From the IMG/VR virus record IMGVR_UViG_3300033153_007854: a stretch of 64,000 nucleotides of DNA; one strand, given 5' to 3'. Source of the stretch: an uncultured virus (IMG/VR IMGVR_UViG_3300033153_007854). Lineage: Duplodnaviria; Heunggongvirae; Uroviricota; Caudoviricetes. The notes under the pieces were generated by a model. It was not told the origin of the DNA, searched no databases, and saw only the letters and a list, made by a program, of their open reading frames with translations. Position numbers and translations under genes: made by a program. The stretch's first letter is position 1, and every line of letters begins with the position of its first letter. Of the stretch, positions 17,298 through 56,779 are shown piece by piece.

Positions 17298-17307
17298 ATG
17301 ACATTAG

Positions 17308-17381
17308 TGGGAGCAGTGGGATTCGAACCCGCACTTTCTCGCTCTGGAGGCGAGCGTGATACCTGATTACACTATGCTCCC
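17308..17381 (-). tRNA. tRNA-Trp(CCA)
   Basis: CTCGC CT CCA GA GCGAG. Confidence 0.92.
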
Positions 17382-17459: not shown

Positions 17460-17596
17460 TCATATCCAAGTCATATCCAAGTCATGACCTAAGAATGACC
17501 TAAGAATGACCTAAGAATGACCTAAGAATGACCTAAGAATGACCTAAGAATGACCTAAGAAATCATCCATTTGATGTCCATTTGATGTCCATTTGA
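17460..17596. repeat. Three adjacent 11-bp tandem arrays
   Basis: TCATATCCAAG x2, ATGACCTAAGA x7 (17484-17560), TCCATTTGATG x2.8 (17566-17596). Confidence 0.95.
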
Positions 17597-17670
17597 CCTT
17601 ACTGAGTTCAATCTGGAACAATACATATCTGACGGTCTATAGTATTGATGGAATCGCCTGAAATTAAAGA

Positions 17671-17743
17671 TGGACCTGACCGGACTCGAACCGATAGTCT
17701 TCTGCTTGCAAAACAGGTGCATTTCCAATTATGCTACAGGCCC
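17671..17743 (-). tRNA. tRNA-Ala(TGC)
   Basis: TT TGC AA loop; G3:U70. Confidence 0.92.
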
Positions 17744-17773
17744 TCGTGGGGCATTACGCCCCTGGTTTGTCGG

Positions 17774-18427
17774 CTACTGGTATCGGGACATCCTCATCAT
17801 CTCCCAAAGACCGTTCTCGTCCGTGTACCCGACGCTTCTTACGTCCGTTACCCGTTCCTGTAGTCATATGGGCAGGTCTTTGATGTATCTGTCCTTGGTC
17901 ATGCCGGGACCGCCGACAAGCAATCCCTGACCGTCCTTGAGGCAGGCTCGGGTCTGTTCCCCCACATGGCGGAGCCATTGGAGCAACGCTCTTTCCCTAT
18001 CCCTCTCGAACCTCCGCTGTGACTGTCCCCCGGCCTTGTGCTTCCGGGGAACCATGGAGGTTTCATGCCACAGGACTTGGATGTTCTCGCCGTCCGTCTG
18101 TCCTATGGTCGCTTTGTTCGCATCCACGACCACGAGCAACGTGGCCGGGACTTCGACAGGCCGTACCACTATGAACTGATTTCCGCAGTGGTAGATTCTC
18201 CTTTTTCCCTCGTAGGGCTCGACGGTTGCCTGCGACCCGTCTGCGAACACGGCGAGGCCCTGGTCCAATAGCTCGATGTCGCCGAGGATGTGCAGGATTC
18301 TCCTGAGTCCCGCCTCGACGCTCTTTCGAGTATGCTTAGACTTGATGTTCCGTGCCTCTGCCAGTTCTCTCTGGACGAATTGCTATGGCCGTCTACTGCC
18401 TTGGGGGAGGTATAGGCTTATTTTCAT
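17774..18427 (-). CDS. prf1: Class I peptide chain release factor aRF1/eRF1 homologue (N+M domains) with two in-frame stops
   Basis: ISLYLP, NIKS, YHCGNQF (YxCxxxF), KHKAGGQSQRRFER, VGGPGMTK, GYTDENGLWE all in one frame; TAG at 18383-18385 (codon 15) and TGA at 17864-17866 (codon 188). Confidence 0.9.
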
Positions 18428-18515
18428 TGTTCTCACCTCGATGGAAATTGATTATAGGACGAAATGATGGTTGTTCGTAATTATATGCGCATAAAAATCT
18501 TTATATATTATAGGG

Positions 18516-18579
18516 TGTGGCCACAAATGTATATATAATGGGTCGGTTGTGTGGCCACAATTCTATATTTGTGGCCACA
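18516..18579. promoter_or_regulatory. Three TGTGGCCACA palindromes upstream of aRF1
   Basis: Perfect 10-bp palindromes at 18516, 18550 and 18570. Confidence 0.6.
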
Positions 18580-18583
18580 AATT

Positions 18584-18943
18584 CTACTCCTCTATCTTGC
18601 AACTTCCCTTCTCGTTGTCCCACTTGCCGCCGTCACGCAAGCACTCGGCTTTCTTCCAATGCTTGATGCCGATACCCATAGAGATAATGATGAGTGGAAA
18701 GGAGACACCCATGAATAGGAATTCCATCGGCCATGAAACTGTCGGAGTGAGGAGAGTTCCTGGGGCTATGATGGATTGGATTATCAGTAAGACGACAAGC
18801 ACGGTTAATGCGAATATGAAGAAGTGGATTGTATGTTTGTGGTAGAGGTATCTTCCAAACAGATACGAAATTATTGGTAGGATTATCCAATATGCTAAGA
18901 CCAACTCGATTATAGCAACAGTTAGGCTCATGTGGTTAGACAT
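18584..18943 (-). CDS. Three-TM protein with C-terminal Cys tag
   Basis: Ends CLRDGGKWDNEKGSCKIEE; paralogue of the next gene; class B promoter. Confidence 0.8.
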   Translation of the reverse strand: MSNHMSLTVAIIELVLAYWIILPIISYLFGRYLYHKHTIHFFIFALTVLVVLLIIQSIIAPGTLLTPTVSWPMEFLFMGVSFPLIIISMGIGIKHWKKAECLRDGGKWDNEKGSCKIEE

Positions 18944-30030: not shown

Positions 30031-30085
30031 TTGTTCACCTAAGTCTTTCTAATATCCGGGGACTTTATATGCTTTTTGAAAGGAA

Positions 30086-30174
30086 TGGTGCTGGAGGGAA
30101 GATTCGAACTTCCGACGTTGCCTATGTAGTGATTCCTAAGACCACCGCATTCGACCTGGCTCTGCTACTCCAGC
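30086..30174 (-). tRNA. tRNA-Leu(TAG), CCA encoded
   Basis: GTGGT CT TAG GA ATCAC, long variable region. Confidence 0.9.
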
Positions 30175-30176
30175 TT

Positions 30177-30695
30177 TTAATGTGTGTCGTTATATTCCTG
30201 ACACCAGTTGATGATGGTTTCCTCAGTCCATTTGAAATGACGATTCTTCCGTATGTTTCGAGATTGAATCTTTCCGACAAGCTCTGCCCGCTTCTTCATA
30301 TCAACCATGTCGTAACCCATATATTGATTTCGTCTTCCAATTGGCCCCATTGAAATGTATTCGAGCATAACCCCGATATGTGGTTTTTTTATTACTGAGT
30401 AGGGAGATATTGTAGTTAATAATTTCTTTAATGATGGTCTTGCATAAATGCTTATTTCTGCCATTTTGCATCCTGTTCCGTAAGTACGAAATCGGGTATT
30501 GTAATTGAGGCCCAGGTCATCAAATATATGTTTAATGGTTTGGAACCATTTTCCTTCGGACATAGCGATGCTAAACGAGGGGGTGATGGCTATCCGATTC
30601 CCAAATTTTCTTTTTGATTTTCGTGTGATGACGTTGAAATAAATTGAGCCTTCGCCATCAATCAATCCCGCCATCCAAGCTATTGTGGTAGACAT
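30177..30695 (-). CDS. Free-standing LAGLIDADG homing endonuclease
   Basis: IAWMAGLIDGEGSI...LLTTISPYSVIKK; own promoter at ~30725. Confidence 0.85.
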   Translation of the reverse strand: MSTTIAWMAGLIDGEGSIYFNVITRKSKRKFGNRIAITPSFSIAMSEGKWFQTIKHIFDDLGLNYNTRFRTYGTGCKMAEISIYARPSLKKLLTTISPYSVIKKPHIGVMLEYISMGPIGRRNQYMGYDMVDMKKRAELVGKIQSRNIRKNRHFKWTEETIINWCQEYNDTH

Positions 30696-31385: not shown

Positions 31386-31601
31386 CTATTGACCTCTCGT
31401 TCCTGGCGTCCTCTTGTAGCCATGGTGTTTATCGTGACAATCCCTACAGAGAATCCTCCAGTTGGATGGAGTGTCCTCGCCACCTTTGGATAAAGGCTTG
31501 ATATGATGAATGGATAGGTTATTTTCAGCTCCGCACTTTGAGCATATCCCTACACGGAGCATTCTGCGGCGTTGCCTGTTAATGTAATTGATGTGACTCA
31601 C
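31386..31601 (-). CDS. Minimal HNH endonuclease
   Basis: CSKCG...HHIKPLSKGGEDTPSNWRILCRDCHDKHH. Confidence 0.85.
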   Translation of the reverse strand: MSHINYINRQRRRMLRVGICSKCGAENNLSIHHIKPLSKGGEDTPSNWRILCRDCHDKHHGYKRTPGTRGQ

Positions 31602-32269
31602 GCCATCACCACGTTGAATCGGGGAGTTCTGCCCGTCCAATGTGATTCTTCAGCCAAGTCGTCCAAGAACTCCTGAACGACGAGCTTGCCGAACTGCTTG
31701 ACCGTATCGGCCTTCACGACGATGCCTTCCATGTTGGCCACGGTGGAGAATGCCGACCTCTTGTTCTCACAGAGGGGAAGCAGGTCATCGAACTTGACCT
31801 TCCCCCTGAACATCACGGGAGCTGTCGTGAATCCGAGCCCGTTGAGGATTTTTATCTTGCGGTCCTGAGAGATGATGCGGCCAATACCTTCTTCGATAAT
31901 GTCGAAGGCGATGAACCTGTCTGGAAGCCTGTCATACACGATATTGTGCTGAACGTGCGCCCACTCGCCGACGACCCTGGTGTGCCTCGGTATTCCCTCG
32001 ACCTTTTCGATGTTCGTCCATACCCAAGGCCACGCTCCTTTGAACTGGGTGCATTTGTCATATTCGGATAAATGCCTGTTCCGAGTGTAGATGACTGGCT
32101 TGCCGTTCTTGAAAGCAATAGACATCTGGGAGCCGTCAATCTTCTCCTCAATTCTGGTATCCCCCTTCAGTAACCTCTTGACCTCACTGGGGTTGAGATA
32201 ACGCTTATCGTGCCTTGCGGATATGGCGGAATGAGGTATTCTCAGTGGTTTAGGATACTTCAGTTGCAT
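31598..32269 (-). CDS. ATP-dependent RNA ligase (nucleotidyltransferase domain)
   Basis: YPKPLRIP, motif I EEKIDGSQ, GEW, FIAFDI, EGIVVK, GKLV. Confidence 0.85.
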   Translation of the reverse strand: MQLKYPKPLRIPHSAISARHDKRYLNPSEVKRLLKGDTRIEEKIDGSQMSIAFKNGKPVIYTRNRHLSEYDKCTQFKGAWPWVWTNIEKVEGIPRHTRVVGEWAHVQHNIVYDRLPDRFIAFDIIEEGIGRIISQDRKIKILNGLGFTTAPVMFRGKVKFDDLLPLCENKRSAFSTVANMEGIVVKADTVKQFGKLVVQEFLDDLAEESHWTGRTPRFNVVMA

Positions 32270-36132: not shown

Positions 36133-36162
36133 GTCACCGATGGTACTGTAGGTTCGGGGACT

Positions 36163-36513
36163 TTATATTGGTATCGTTCCGCTTTCGACATCGGCGATAA
36201 TTTCACTGATTTTATCGTGCATCTGCTTAATTAGTTCTCGCCGCTCCTTGAATGTCAAAGACTGAACAACCGAACCGCCGCCTGAGAATATAGCATAATG
36301 TACCCTTTCATCACCATTGACCAGGAATGTGAATGAAATATCCTTCCCGAGCTTTGTGTCGAACCTAACTTCTGAGAGGCTTTCGTCAACACATCGGATG
36401 CATATGTCTGCAAAACCCATCTCACGATTAGTGAGTTCGTAGGTGGGTGGAAACAGGCCACCCCATGTTCCCATCAATGCACCGCATCTCTGACAAAGGA
36501 CCGTGACGCTCAT
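36163..36513 (-). CDS. Hypothetical Zn-binding protein
   Basis: CQRCG...CIRC; class A promoter. Confidence 0.65.
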   Translation of the reverse strand: MSVTVLCQRCGALMGTWGGLFPPTYELTNREMGFADICIRCVDESLSEVRFDTKLGKDISFTFLVNGDERVHYAIFSGGGSVVQSLTFKERRELIKQMHDKISEIIADVESGTIPI

Positions 36514-36537
36514 GATAATGCTTAGGTATTGGGGACT

Positions 36538-37473
36538 TTATAAGGATTTCCTCATCTCGTATACTCTCTTAATGAGTTCCCCGTCACCCTTGATGAACGG
36601 GAAGACCCAGATGGCTTCTCCTTGCTTGTTCTTGTAATAGTCACTGGTTAGGTGTCTCCAATGTCCCCGGACCCAGAAGGCGTGTGATGGGGAACTTCTC
36701 TTAGTAATCGCCGCAACAGCATCTAAATAGCACTTTGTTTTTCCCGTTACTGTGATTTTCATTCTGGACGGCATGATGGGTTTTCCCTTCTTTATTCGCT
36801 TTTCATTTGATTCTGCCCTTGGTCTACGGGTGCGGACCTCGACATCGGGATGATTCAAATAATCCACAGAATTCCAGAACAATCGGTCCATATTCCTTAC
36901 CAGCACTCGATAGTTTTTCCTTGTTTTCACTTCTTCAAATGCGGGGTCATATTTGCATATATGGCCATGAGGTGAGTACGCTCTTATTTCGAGAAGTTGT
37001 CCGACATCTCTTTCTGATAGTGAGAATAATGCAACCTGTGGCATATAATCTACTTTATTTTCTTCAATATATTCTCTAACTTTATCCCTATATCGTCTAT
37101 CATTTTCAGATTCCGTTACAATGTGATATTCAACTGATGCCAGTCCACTGAGCCAATTGCCATTATATCCGAGCTTTAATGGCATATACATGAATCGGAA
37201 AGGGGTTGGTCTTGCAAAATGTTTATTATCCGTTAGGGAAAGCAATTTTAATATGTCAGGTCGAGGTGAGAAAGTATGGTATGAGCTGGATGTCGAAGAA
37301 GCGTCATTATATATCATCTGGGTAATCGCTTCTTCCGGTGTCTCTGCACTGAGGACTTCTTCTTCAAACCTCGGGTCATTAAAGCTCTTTTTCAATAATT
37401 TGGTTATGATGGCTAGGTTTTTAGCGGCCTCACCTGGATTCATGACCTCTACATGAATGTCGTCGGGGTTCAT
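36538..37473 (-). CDS. Hypothetical virus-type protein (HxxRGHWR...IWVxP motif)
   Basis: HAFWVRGHWRH...IWVFPFIKG. Confidence 0.75.
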   Translation of the reverse strand: MNPDDIHVEVMNPGEAAKNLAIITKLLKKSFNDPRFEEEVLSAETPEEAITQMIYNDASSTSSSYHTFSPRPDILKLLSLTDNKHFARPTPFRFMYMPLKLGYNGNWLSGLASVEYHIVTESENDRRYRDKVREYIEENKVDYMPQVALFSLSERDVGQLLEIRAYSPHGHICKYDPAFEEVKTRKNYRVLVRNMDRLFWNSVDYLNHPDVEVRTRRPRAESNEKRIKKGKPIMPSRMKITVTGKTKCYLDAVAAITKRSSPSHAFWVRGHWRHLTSDYYKNKQGEAIWVFPFIKGDGELIKRVYEMRKSL

Positions 37474-56726: not shown

Positions 56727-56779
56727 CGTGCCACCGATAGTATGATAGTAACTGGGACTTTATATGCTTTTAGGCGAGA

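What the first reader, a model, noticed from the sequence alone, without database searches (positions are those of the whole stretch)
17774..18427. Release factor aRF1 gene gated by two different in-frame stop codons, each in a classic leaky context
Seen: one frame runs from an SD-preceded ATG (18427) through ISLYLP, TAG (codon 15), NIKS, YxCxxxF, GGQ, GGPG, TGA (codon 188), GYTDENGLWE and a final TAG (217 codons). There is no frameshift and every catalytic motif is intact. The stop contexts are TAG-CAA-TT and TGA-CTA. Established: UAG-CAR-YYA (TMV) and UGA-CUA (alphavirus, vertebrate) are the best-known read-through signals. Release factors are known to autoregulate by recoding (bacterial prfB frameshift; Mimiviridae eRF1). 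Inference: an archaeal mobile element makes its own C-domain-less RF only when host termination at both UAG and UGA is weak. That is a dual-codon termination sensor embedded in a tRNA array. The ORF track splits this gene and misses it.
Basis: partly seen in the sequence, partly recalled or inferred. Interest (0 to 1): 0.92.

Follow-up and report, generated by a model that had tools for sequence, protein, structure and literature searches.

The report
Stop-gated mini release factor in archaeal virus
A large virus that most likely infects archaea carries, inside its tRNA gene cluster, a cut-down copy of the protein that ends translation, and this gene, like nearly all its relatives in other viruses, is interrupted by stop codons that ribosomes probably have to read through, which suggests the virus ties production of the factor to how well stop codons are being obeyed.

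Summary
Window 18427→17774 (minus strand) is one 217-codon frame with a Shine-Dalgarno site and ATG, TAG at codon 15, NIKS, YxCxxxF, GGQ, TGA at codon 188 and a final TAG. The product is an aRF1/eRF1 N+M-domain protein with no C domain and no N-terminal helix or GTS loop.

The stops are not a one-off defect. Of 11 genes of this short viral RF clade for which I had DNA, all in tRNA-rich viral or metagenome contigs:
- 7 carry in-frame stops (8 stops: 4 TAG, 4 TGA, 0 TAA), with no frameshifts in those 7;
- 2 carry the Mimivirus/prfB-type +1 shift site CUU-UAG-C;
- 2 are uninterrupted.

A stop at codon 188 recurs in 7 of 30 members, including a clade only 51–60% identical. The segments before, between and after the window's stops are equally conserved (53%, 50%, 60%). 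The base after the in-frame stops is C in 5 of 8 cases, against 7 of 73 ordinary TAG/TGA gene ends (p=0.0014). I found no genome-wide recoding, no suppressor tRNA and no downstream RNA structure.

Best reading: programmed, termination-sensitive recoding that gates a viral minimal release factor. This is a new variant of the prfB/Mimivirus R726 principle and would be the first near-cognate read-through case in an archaeal system. No expression data exist. TAG15 is unique to this window and could be a young nonsense allele.

The parts
17774..18427 (-). Whole short aRF1-like gene: 217 codons including two in-frame stops, plus the final TAG (17776-17774)
   Evidence: frame; aRF1/eRF1 homology; AF2 model with mean pLDDT 82; best Foldseek matches are ribosome-bound eRF1 and aRF1 4af1
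18433..18439 (-). Shine-Dalgarno-like GAGGTGA, 5 nt upstream of the ATG at 18427
   Evidence: SD-like 5-mers lie upstream of 29 of 100 minus-strand ORFs against 4.2±1.9 at random positions
18383..18385 (-). In-frame TAG, codon 15 (context cca TAG caa ttc). Homologues have R or K in 11 of 15 sequences covering this column; the stop is unique to the window
18338..18349 (-). NIKS stop-codon recognition motif (residues 27-30)
   Evidence: aligned to NIKS of aRF1 4af1
18173..18193 (-). YxCxxxF motif (YHCGNQF, residues 79-85)
18023..18031 (-). GGQ peptidyl-tRNA hydrolysis motif (residues 133-135), invariant in the family alignment
17864..17866 (-). In-frame TGA, codon 188 (context ata TGA cta cag). 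This is the family hot spot: a stop here in 7 of 30 members
17777..17863 (-). Post-TGA segment (residues 189-217) with the conserved GYTDENGLWE…SRY motif and no start codon of its own; 60% identical to the family (394 of 659 positions)
18499..18579 (-). Putative dedicated promoter/operator: three exact copies of the palindrome TGTGGCCACA (18516-18525, 18550-18559, 18570-18579) and a TATA-like TATAATATATAAAG (18512-18499)
   Evidence: the exact copies occur nowhere else in the 64 kb; 0 of 100 shuffles reach 6 matches at ≤1 mismatch
17671..17743 (-). tRNA-Ala(TGC), starting 30 nt after the RF stop. It is part of the array of 26 same-strand tRNAs (8076-33599) in which the gene is embedded
17307..17381 (-). 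tRNA-Trp(CCA), near-cognate for UGA; normal 5-bp anticodon stem

Best explanation
The gene encodes a virus-made minimal class-I release factor. It keeps the stop-codon-reading N domain (minus its first helix and GTS loop) and the GGQ-bearing M domain, but has no C domain, so it presumably acts without the aEF1α-type delivery GTPase.

Its synthesis is gated by programmed recoding. Ribosomes start at the SD-preceded ATG and must read through UAG-C at codon 15 and UGA-C at codon 188, most likely with near-cognate tRNAs (Trp at UGA; Lys, Gln or Tyr at UAG), to make the 217-residue protein. Because read-through competes with release-factor action at those codons, output falls when termination activity (host aRF1 plus the viral factor itself) is high and rises when it is low. 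This is a feedback or sensing loop of the same logic as bacterial prfB and Mimivirus R726.

Shown here: the gene's anatomy, its homology and fold, the recurrence and partial conservation of the stops in relatives, protein-level constraint on all three segments, weak-context enrichment, and the absence of genome-wide recoding.

Inferred: that read-through happens, which amino acids are inserted, that the factor is active, and that it feeds back on its own gene.
For: 1. Recurrence at DNA level. Of 11 genes of the short viral RF clade, 7 have in-frame stops: the window (2 stops), L001, L009, L010, L011, L012 and L174. That is 8 stops in all (4 TAG, 4 TGA, 0 TAA), and those 7 genes have no frameshifts. 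Two more genes (L004, L006) change frame at UAU CUU UAG CAC. Two (L002, L014) are uninterrupted.

2. The shift site. CUU-UAG-C is the Mimivirus R726 shift site and the analogue of prfB's CUU-UGA-C (Jeudy 2012, section 8 read).

3. The codon-188 stop. It is present in 7 of 30 members covering that column: the window and L009 at DNA level (TGA-CTA, TGA-CTC), and P0006, P0007, P0025, P0029 and P0031, which end exactly at residue 187 on contigs of 8-117 kb, several in more than one assembly. The clade {L009, P0006, P0025, P0029} all carry it at 51-60% pairwise identity. On the tree the state needs at least 4 changes, and only 7 of 500 label shuffles are as clustered.

4. Constraint on every segment. 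Window identity to the family is 53% (81/152) before the TAG, 50% (2041/4078) between the stops and 60% (394/659) after the TGA. Neither downstream segment has a nearby start codon.

5. Position 188 tolerates any residue. Sense members have Y7, E3, D3, S3, W2, Q2, N, R and T. P0299, a cluster mate more than 90% identical to the stop-bearing P0031 and P0300, has W there and continues with the conserved tail.

6. Weak context. The base after the stop is C at 5 of 8 in-frame stops and at both shift sites, against 7 of 73 ordinary TAG/TGA gene ends in the window and the 61-kb relative (Fisher p=0.0014). TAA is 0 of 8 in-frame stops against 64 of 137 ordinary ends (p=0.009).

7. Gene-specific, not genome-wide. 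The standard code gives 83% (window) and 89% (relative G001) ORF coverage. Freeing TAG or TGA helps no more than freeing TAA as a control. All three stops end ordinary genes. Pfam-recognised genes in the window, and the 853-2691-aa structural ORFs of the relative, are intact.

8. Conserved setting. The gene lies inside tRNA arrays in the window (26 tRNAs), L001 (22), L009 (15), L011 (12), L174 (25), L006 (17) and L004 (13).

9. Fold. The model matches accommodated eRF1 on the ribosome (5lzu and others, E about 1e-13) and aRF1 4af1.
Against: - There is no RNA-seq, proteomic or read-level evidence.
- TAG15 is unique to this window. It replaces a mostly conserved R/K, so it could be a young nonsense mutation rather than a programmed site.
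- Sense and stop alleles at codon 188 coexist in near-identical strains (P0299 against P0031/P0300), so the stop is not obligatory.
- Two uninterrupted full-length members (P0004, P0026) and two uninterrupted short-form genes (L002, L014) exist.
- No stimulatory RNA structure follows any in-frame stop (z between -1.1 and +1.0), and the contexts beyond +4 are not conserved.
- Near-cognate read-through has not been demonstrated in Archaea, according to passages of the 2021 review PMC8211752.
- For five of the seven stop-188 members I saw only called proteins, not DNA.
- The terminator controls come from two genomes and from a mechanical ORF call.
- The protein lacks the GTS loop and the C domain, so activity as a release factor is itself an inference.
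Confidence: 0.6

Rival explanations
1. Two-product gene. The stops work mainly as real terminators, and the 187-residue protein (or, in other members, other truncated forms) is the main functional product. The full-length form is a minor isoform or a remnant.
For: A natural subgroup of about 160 residues ends soon after the GGQ helix (L002, L014, P0034, P0036, P0042, P0065). The region beyond about residue 160 is therefore dispensable in some lineages. Sense and stop alleles coexist at 188.
Against: The 29 codons after the TGA are the best-conserved part of the window gene (60%, and 24 of 29 identical to P0010) and carry the family's GYTDENGLWE motif. In the model they form a strand and a helix of the M domain at high confidence (pLDDT block means 95-96 for residues 181-210). 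This idea cannot explain TAG15, the early stops in L011 and L174, or the stops at positions 66 and 97 in L001 and L012, which would remove GGQ.
Confidence: 0.14
2. Decay. The window gene, or at least its TAG15, is a recent nonsense allele of a dispensable accessory gene, and the family is simply prone to pseudogenisation.
For: TAG15 is found in no other member. Stop/sense polymorphism exists between near-identical strains. One stop-188 lineage (P0029 and its cluster) has GGM instead of GGQ.
Against: The 7 genes with in-frame stops carry 8 nonsense codons but no indels, and the only frame changes in the clade are at a canonical CUU-stop-C shift site. TAA is never used. The +4 C bias is the opposite of ordinary gene ends. 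The stop at 188 persists across a clade only 51-60% identical. All segments remain under protein-level constraint.
Confidence: 0.12
3. Dedicated decoding. The TAG and/or TGA are read efficiently as sense, either by a suppressor tRNA encoded in the unseen part of the genome, by host pyrrolysine or selenocysteine machinery, or by a stage-specific code change as in stop-recoded phages.
For: Only 64 kb of a contig of at least 135 kb was seen. The nearest cellular aRF1s, at 33-37% identity, are mostly Thermoplasmata and Methanomassiliicoccales, a group I recall as including pyrrolysine users. Stop-recoded phages are known (search listing of the Borges et al. preprint).
Against: No tRNA with a CTA or TCA anticodon was found among 26 in the window (ARAGORN; Rfam found 24 of these and no extra). 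None was found in 21 tRNAs across the whole 61-kb relative, nor in the arrays of L009, L011, L012, L174, L004 and L006. TAG and TGA end 40 of 73 ordinary window ORFs. No alternative code improves ORF coverage beyond the TAA control. Structural genes of the relative are intact under the standard code. The stop positions align with variable or R/K/E/L residues, not Cys, and both stop types occur in one gene. tRNA-Trp has a normal 5-bp anticodon stem.
Confidence: 0.08
4. Assembly or sequencing error created the two stops.
For: It is a metagenome-derived contig, and reads could not be examined.
Against: The 128-aa fragment ending at the TGA was recorded on 2 contigs. The same codon-188 stop is present in independent assemblies of six other lineages, and in-frame stops occur in six other genes with DNA. 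Both are substitutions in an otherwise intact frame.
Confidence: 0.02

Closest known systems
Mimivirus R726 / Megavirus mg280 class-I release factor gene (Jeudy et al. 2012, PLoS Genet, PMC3521657; abstract and sections 6, 8, 9 read)
   Same: It is a virus-encoded aRF1/eRF1-type factor with NIKS, YxCxxxF and GGQ. Its own ORF is interrupted by stop codons that must be recoded, in weak stop-plus-C contexts. The stops are kept between orthologues about 47% identical. It sits in a virus that also carries tRNAs. Two relatives of the window gene (L004, L006) have the same CUU UAG C shift site.
   Different: R726 is a near full-length factor that keeps a C-terminal domain (with a deletion). It uses one UGA read-through plus one +1 frameshift at fixed 5' positions, and its host is a eukaryote (Acanthamoeba). 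The window gene has only N+M domains (217 aa). It uses two read-through stops (UAG and UGA) and no frameshift. Stop positions vary across its family. Its carrier looks like a tailed virus of archaea. Read-through and frameshifting of R726 were shown experimentally; here nothing has been.
Bacterial prfB (RF2) autoregulatory +1 frameshift at CUU UGA C (as summarised in Jeudy 2012 section 8; otherwise recalled)
   Same: It is a release-factor gene gated by an in-frame stop that the factor itself can recognise. This gives negative feedback on termination capacity, and C follows the stop.
   Different: prfB needs a frameshift with an SD-like stimulator at a fixed codon, and RF2 is unrelated in fold to aRF1. 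The window gene stays in frame and needs a tRNA to decode the stop.
Cellular archaeal aRF1 (TIGR03676; PDB 4af1, 3agk)
   Same: N and M domains are homologous, at no more than 41% identity. The NIKS, YxCxxxF and GGQ motifs are present, and the predicted fold matches.
   Different: The window protein lacks about 30 N-terminal residues (helix α1 and the GTS loop) and the whole C domain that binds aEF1α. It scores below the NCBIfam cut-off. It forms a separate, well-supported clade (SH-aLRT 98) with other viral or metagenomic short forms. Cellular aRF1 genes in the 18 loci I translated had no in-frame stops.
Leaky-stop read-through signals of eukaryotic viruses (TMV UAG-CAR-YYA; alphavirus/vertebrate UGA-CUA) (recalled; a 2026 review, PMC13517186, was seen in a search listing only)
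   Same: The window contexts are UAG-CAA-UUC and UGA-CUA. C at +4 is enriched across the family's in-frame stops.
   Different: The hexanucleotide motifs are not conserved in homologues, and no downstream structure is present. Those signals were defined on eukaryotic ribosomes with eRF1/eRF3, and their effect on archaeal ribosomes is unknown.

Membership tests
Archaeal/eukaryotic class-I release factor (aRF1/eRF1) | NIKS loop, YxCxxxF motif (stop-codon recognition) and GGQ (peptidyl-tRNA hydrolysis) | tested here: met
   NIKS at 27-30, YHCGNQF at 79-85, GGQ at 133-135. They align to the same motifs of aRF1 4af1. GGQ is invariant in the family alignment
Archaeal/eukaryotic class-I release factor (aRF1/eRF1) | Complete N domain including N-terminal helix and GTS loop | tested here: not met
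   The alignment starts at position 23 of the TIGR03676 model and at residue 33-36 of PDB aRF1 chains. The protein begins with the strand that follows the GTS loop. The role of the GTS loop is recalled, not tested
Archaeal/eukaryotic class-I release factor (aRF1/eRF1) | C domain (Pfam eRF1_3) that binds aEF1α/eRF3 | tested here: not met
   No PF03465 hit. The match ends at model position 259 of 403 and the final stop follows directly. The 'longer' search found only cellular aRF1 at ≤41% identity
Archaeal/eukaryotic class-I release factor (aRF1/eRF1) | Score above the curated NCBIfam equivalog cut-off | tested here: not met
   138 bits against a cut-off of 234.7. The Pfam M-domain model eRF1_2 is passed (74.9 against 27.1)
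Archaeal/eukaryotic class-I release factor (aRF1/eRF1) | N+M fold as in solved eRF1/aRF1 | tested here: met
   AF2 mean pLDDT 82. Foldseek top hits are eRF1 in termination complexes (E 5e-14 to 1e-11, TM-score on the query about 0.63) and aRF1 4af1
Recoding-gated release-factor genes (prfB, Mimivirus R726 type) | In-frame stop inside the factor's own ORF with conserved coding sequence downstream and no restart codon | tested here: met
Recoding-gated release-factor genes (prfB, Mimivirus R726 type) | Recoding stop kept among diverged orthologues | tested here: met
   Met for codon 188: 7 of 30 members, including a clade at 51-60% identity. Not met for codon 15, which is unique to the window
Recoding-gated release-factor genes (prfB, Mimivirus R726 type) | Weak termination context (C after the stop) that is rare at ordinary gene ends | tested here: met
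   Both window stops are followed by C. Family-wide it is 5 of 8 against 7 of 73 ordinary TAG/TGA ends, p=0.0014
Recoding-gated release-factor genes (prfB, Mimivirus R726 type) | CUU-stop-C +1 shift site | tested here: not met
   Absent from the window gene, which stays in frame. Present in relatives L004 and L006
Recoding-gated release-factor genes (prfB, Mimivirus R726 type) | Recoding efficiency responds to release-factor level | not testable with these tools
   Needs reporter assays with titrated aRF1 or viral factor
Context-programmed stop read-through (TMV/alphavirus type) | Conserved 3' hexanucleotide (CAR-YYA after UAG; CUA after UGA) and/or a downstream structure | tested here: inconclusive
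   The window has CAA-UUC (5 of 6) and CUA. Homologues differ (CCA, AUG, CUC after UAG; CUC, AAU, AAG after UGA). There is no stable structure in the 75 nt downstream (z -1.1 to +1.0)
Genome-wide or stage-specific stop-codon reassignment | ORF coverage rises under the alternative code; a suppressor tRNA is present; in-frame stops occur in many genes | tested here: not met
   no gain beyond the TAA control; no CTA or TCA anticodon; other genes intact. The rest of the ≥135-kb genome was not seen

The most novel reading that the evidence does not exclude
The family is a virus-specific, GTPase-independent 'mini release factor'. Losing the GTS loop and the C domain has changed its stop-codon specificity, for example to UAA only or UAA-preferring, so it cannot terminate at its own in-frame UAG/UGA. 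The gates would then measure the host's aRF1 activity rather than the viral factor's own level. The virus would switch on its private terminator, together with its private tRNA set, exactly when host termination collapses during infection or under a host defence that targets translation. This would be a third, independent origin of stop-gated RF genes (bacteria, giant viruses, archaeal viruses). It would also be the first programmed near-cognate read-through in an archaeal system.
Probability: 0.2. Interest if true: 0.9.

Novelty: new variant of a known kind. Interest (0 to 1): 0.8.

Why it matters
Release-factor genes gated by their own stop codons are a textbook feedback device in bacteria (prfB). 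They have one published viral counterpart, Mimivirus R726.

This locus and its relatives suggest the same principle evolved again, in a different form. The factor is a minimal two-domain protein carried in the tRNA arrays of tailed viruses that appear to infect archaea, and it uses in-frame UAG/UGA read-through, with the CUU-UAG-C shift in some relatives.

If confirmed, three things follow:
- It would be the first case of near-cognate programmed read-through in an archaeal translation system. Passages of the 2021 review PMC8211752 describe read-through there only for selenocysteine and pyrrolysine.
- It would give a natural, compact test object for how aRF1 reads stop codons without the GTS loop and without aEF1α.
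- It would show that gene callers systematically split and mis-annotate this family. Database entries are fragments of 86-200 aa.

Tried and rejected
- Read-level check: the look-up of sequencing runs listed no run for window 17500-18700. None was listed, no RNA holder was listed, and read laying was therefore not used.
- Whole genome: none is held for the window.
- Phage records: tblastn of the read-through protein found no match.
- Viral-contig scan with the single middle segment: it found nothing. Alignment-seeded scans did find relatives.
- Metagenome scan: it returned mostly cellular aRF1, and only L009-L012 and L014 were family members. Its cap then prevented fetching DNA for P0003, P0006, P0007, P0025, P0029, P0031 and P0299.
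- Genome-collection scan: it returned only cellular aRF1. No family member is binned with a host, so the host remains unidentified.
- Genome-wide recoding: rejected.
- Suppressor tRNAs and a 4-bp-stem tRNA-Trp: not found.
- Downstream stimulatory RNA structure: not found.
- dN/dS: not attempted. All DNA-level pairs are about 35-60% identical in protein, so synonymous sites are saturated. I used per-segment amino-acid identity instead.
- Same-frame neighbouring ORFs elsewhere in the window: by my reading of a long listing, these mostly have an ATG soon after the stop and look like ordinary adjacent genes. This was not a formal test.
- Earlier scan notes: nothing was held for this genome or sequence. 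A word search returned only giant-virus read-through notes from other genomes, which did not affect this reading.
- Literature: searches found no paper describing an archaeal-virus aRF1 with in-frame stops. Targeted look-ups in PMC8651126, PMC7824862, 10.1101/2025.02.15.638363 and PMC6514570 found none either. Subscription journals are outside that library.
Full report
**Observation.** On the minus strand, window 18427→17774 is a single 217-codon frame. GAGGTGA lies 5 nt upstream of the ATG. Codon 15 is TAG (18385-18383, followed by CAA TTC). NIKS is at residues 27-30, YHCGNQF at 79-85, GGQ at 133-135 and GGPG at 172-175. Codon 188 is TGA (17866-17864, followed by CTA CAG). GYTDENGLWE follows at 200-209, and the frame ends with TAG (17776-17774). 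There is no frameshift.

**What the protein is.** I read it through with X at both stops (P0001).
- It matches Pfam eRF1_2 (E 1e-20).
- It matches NCBIfam aRF1 TIGR03676 over model positions 23-259 of 403, at 138 bits, below the 234.7 cut-off.
- It matches solved aRF1/eRF1 chains, starting at their residue 33-36 and ending near 270.
- It therefore has the N domain without its first helix and GTS loop, and the M domain, but no C domain.
- An AlphaFold2 model built on the family alignment has mean pLDDT 82.
- Its best Foldseek matches are eRF1 accommodated on the ribosome and aRF1 4af1.
- A search among longer proteins found only ordinary cellular aRF1 of about 410 aa at no more than 41% identity. 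No close relative keeps a C domain.

**What carries it.**
- The window holds 26 tRNA genes, all on the gene's strand (ARAGORN). Rfam confirms 24 of them and finds no extra tRNA.
- Recognisable genes include an RNA ligase, a dCMP deaminase, a helicase, a PolB-type exonuclease and a homing endonuclease. Most other ORFs are orphans.
- No whole genome is held. The database fragment of this gene lies on a 135,265-bp contig.
- SD-like motifs precede 29 of 100 minus-strand ORFs, against 4.2±1.9 at random positions.
- A TATA-type motif, TAAAGTCCC, occurs 20 times against 0.5 expected. In the one example I read (36532-36540), it sits about 20 nt upstream of the ATG.
- A 61-kb relative (G001, from IMG/VR) encodes a large terminase subunit, a portal protein and a tape-measure protein.
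- From these points and the aRF1 ancestry I infer a tailed virus of an archaeon. The host lineage is open. The nearest cellular aRF1s are mostly Thermoplasmata and Methanomassiliicoccales, but only at 33-37% identity, and no family member was binned with a host.

**The stops are specific to this gene.**
- The standard code gives 83-85% ORF coverage of the window, and all three stops end ordinary genes.
- Freeing TAG or TGA raises coverage no more than freeing TAA as a control, in the window and in G001.
- Genes with Pfam domains are intact, and so are the 853-2691-aa structural ORFs of G001.
- No tRNA with a stop anticodon was found in the window, in all of G001, or in the arrays around seven relatives.
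- The tRNA-Trp gene about 400 bp from the RF gene has a normal 5-bp anticodon stem.

**The family.** Protein searches found a set of short aRF1-like proteins. On a tree they form one clade (SH-aLRT 98), separate from 18 cellular aRF1 N+M regions. I obtained DNA for 11 genes of this clade.
- In the core group, all 6 of 6 genes are interrupted by in-frame stops in an otherwise intact frame:
  - the window: TAG15 and TGA188;
  - L001: TAG at the position of window residue 70;
  - L009: TGA at exactly residue 188, context TGA-CTC;
  - L010: TAG at residue 209;
  - L011: TGA at about residue 46;
  - L012: TAG at residue 97.
- In the shorter subgroup of about 160 residues, L174 has a TGA at about residue 42. 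L002 and L014 are uninterrupted.
- Two further relatives, L004 and L006, change to the +1 frame at the identical sequence UAU CUU UAG CAC, at about residue 49.
- Jeudy et al. report CUU UAG C as the Mimivirus R726 shift site, CUU UAA C in Megavirus and CUU UGA C in bacterial RF2 (section 8).
- In total, 9 of 11 genes carry a stop-based recoding signal. There are 8 in-frame stops (4 TAG, 4 TGA, 0 TAA), and the 7 genes that carry them have no indels.
- All the longer loci place the gene inside a tRNA array: 22, 15, 12, 25, 17 and 13 tRNAs in L001, L009, L011, L174, L006 and L004.
- Apart from this gene and one dCMP-deaminase gene, the window shares no detectable genes with these loci. The tRNA-plus-RF module is what is conserved between deeply diverged viruses.

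**Codon 188 is a hot spot.**
- Of 30 members covering that column, 7 have a stop there. Two are DNA-verified (the window and L009). Five are called proteins that end exactly at residue 187: P0006, P0007, P0025, P0029 and P0031.
- Those five lie on contigs of 8-117 kb, several in more than one assembly, so these are not contig ends.
- L009, P0006, P0025 and P0029 form a clade (SH-aLRT 90) in which every member has the stop, at 51-60% pairwise identity. The window, P0007 and P0031 lie elsewhere.
- The state needs at least 4 changes on the tree (2 forced by well-supported branches). Only 7 of 500 label shuffles are as clustered.
- The 23 sense members have Y7, E3, D3, S3, W2, Q2, N, R and T at this position, so it tolerates almost anything.
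- P0299 is a cluster mate more than 90% identical to the stop-bearing P0031 and P0300. It has W at 188 and runs on into the conserved tail. This fits a one-base TGG/TGA toggle, and Trp as the residue a near-cognate tRNA would insert.

**Constraint and context.**
- The window's three segments are 53% (81/152), 50% (2041/4078) and 60% (394/659) identical to the family. The parts that would be lost by termination are as constrained as the middle.
- Neither downstream segment has a nearby start codon.
- The base after the in-frame stop is C in 5 of 8 cases and at both shift sites. At ordinary TAG/TGA gene ends of the window and G001 it is C in 7 of 73 cases (Fisher p=0.0014; p=8e-5 with the shift sites included).
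- TAA makes up 64 of 137 ordinary gene ends but 0 of 8 in-frame stops (p=0.009).
- Caveats on these controls: they rest on mechanically called ORFs from two genomes, and the in-frame stops come from seven genomes.
- No stable RNA structure follows any in-frame stop (z from -1.1 to +1.0 over 75 nt).

**Interpretation.**
- *What the data argue against.* Intact frames, stop positions limited to permissive sites, a stop held through deep divergence, weak contexts, TAG/TGA only and canonical shift sites in sister genes are together hard to reconcile with decay, assembly error or a changed code.
- *What they fit.* They fit programmed recoding of a release-factor gene. The known function of that arrangement is to couple factor synthesis to termination efficiency (prfB; Mimivirus R726).
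- *Proposed mechanism.* I therefore read the window gene as a stop-gated viral mini release factor. Translation starts at 18427. A fraction of ribosomes decode UAG15 and UGA188 with near-cognate tRNAs, several of which the virus encodes: Lys-CUU, Gln-CUG, Tyr, Trp, Cys and Arg-UCG. The yield of full-length factor falls as termination activity rises.
- *What is inferred.* That the factor is active without the GTS loop and C domain, and whether it recognises UAG and UGA itself, is inference.

**Reservations.**
- TAG15 is unique to this window and replaces a mostly conserved R/K. It may be a young nonsense allele, not a second programmed gate.
The P0029 cluster, whose gene calls in five assemblies all start at family residue 37, may also have a second upstream stop, but I could not see its DNA.
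- Stop and sense alleles coexist at codon 188. Uninterrupted members exist: P0004, P0026, L002 and L014.
- No reads, RNA or peptides could be examined.
- Five of the seven stop-188 members are known to me only as proteins.

**Novelty.**
- Literature searches found no description of an archaeal-virus aRF1 or of in-frame stops in one. Look-ups in four candidate papers found none either.
- Passages of a 2021 review say read-through in Archaea has been shown only for selenocysteine and pyrrolysine.
- The principle of recoding-gated RF genes is known. New here are the minimal two-domain factor, the pure read-through form with movable stop positions, the codon-188 hot spot and the archaeal-virus setting.
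- I rate it a new variant of a known kind, with high interest.

Noticed in passing
window 18516-18525, 18550-18559, 18570-18579 and 18499-18512: Three exact copies of the 10-bp palindrome TGTGGCCACA lie just upstream of a TATA-like TATAATATATAAAG in front of the RF gene. Exact copies occur nowhere else in the 64 kb. This looks like a dedicated operator/promoter, so the gene may also be regulated at the transcription level.
   Followed up: partly
window, 20 sites, e.g. 36532-36540, 36157-36165, 56754-56762, 30059-30067 (19 on the minus strand): The motif TAAAGTCCC occurs 20 times against 0.5 expected. In the one example I read (36532-36540) it lies about 20 nt upstream of the ATG. It is probably the virus's common TATA-box promoter element, implying leaderless or short-leader transcripts. 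The RF gene does not have it.
   Followed up: partly
L004 2546-2560 and L006 5970-5984: Two short RF genes in tRNA arrays of viral contigs (one labelled a giant-virus MAG) change to the +1 frame at the identical sequence TAT CTT TAG CAC. This is the Mimivirus R726 / prfB-type shift site. The called proteins P0019 and P0020 start right after this point and are probably of the same type.
   Followed up: partly
L174 4121-4123: A member of the subgroup of about 160 residues, which ends soon after the GGQ helix, carries an in-frame TGA (…VVEGL*KIRANL…). It sits in the middle of a 25-tRNA array on a 44-kb viral contig.
   Followed up: partly
L010 174-203: Upstream of the conserved KISLFIP strand, L010 has no ATG at the usual place (ACG instead). 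There is an in-frame ATG-CTA-TAG-CTC nine codons earlier. This could be a second, very early in-frame TAG followed by C, or the true start may be the ATG at family residue 15.
   Followed up: no
proteins P0029, P0295-P0298: This stop-188 lineage has GGM instead of GGQ at the catalytic motif in five assemblies. That suggests a hydrolysis-dead variant, or decay, in one branch of the family.
   Followed up: no
window 30086-30695 and 31598-32269: A LAGLIDADG/HNH-type homing endonuclease ORF (30177-30695) directly abuts tRNA-Leu (30086-30174). An Rnl-type RNA ligase (31598-32269) lies within the tRNA array. Together they suggest tRNA repair and mobile-intron-like activity.
   Followed up: no
window 8076-33599: The 26 tRNAs cover Thr, Met (2), Lys (2), Asn, Glu, Gln (2), Ile, Trp, Asp, Ala, Pro, Gly (2), Cys, Val, Arg (3), Tyr, Phe, Leu and His. 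There is no Ser tRNA and only one Leu in this window. The rest of the set may lie outside the window.
   Followed up: no
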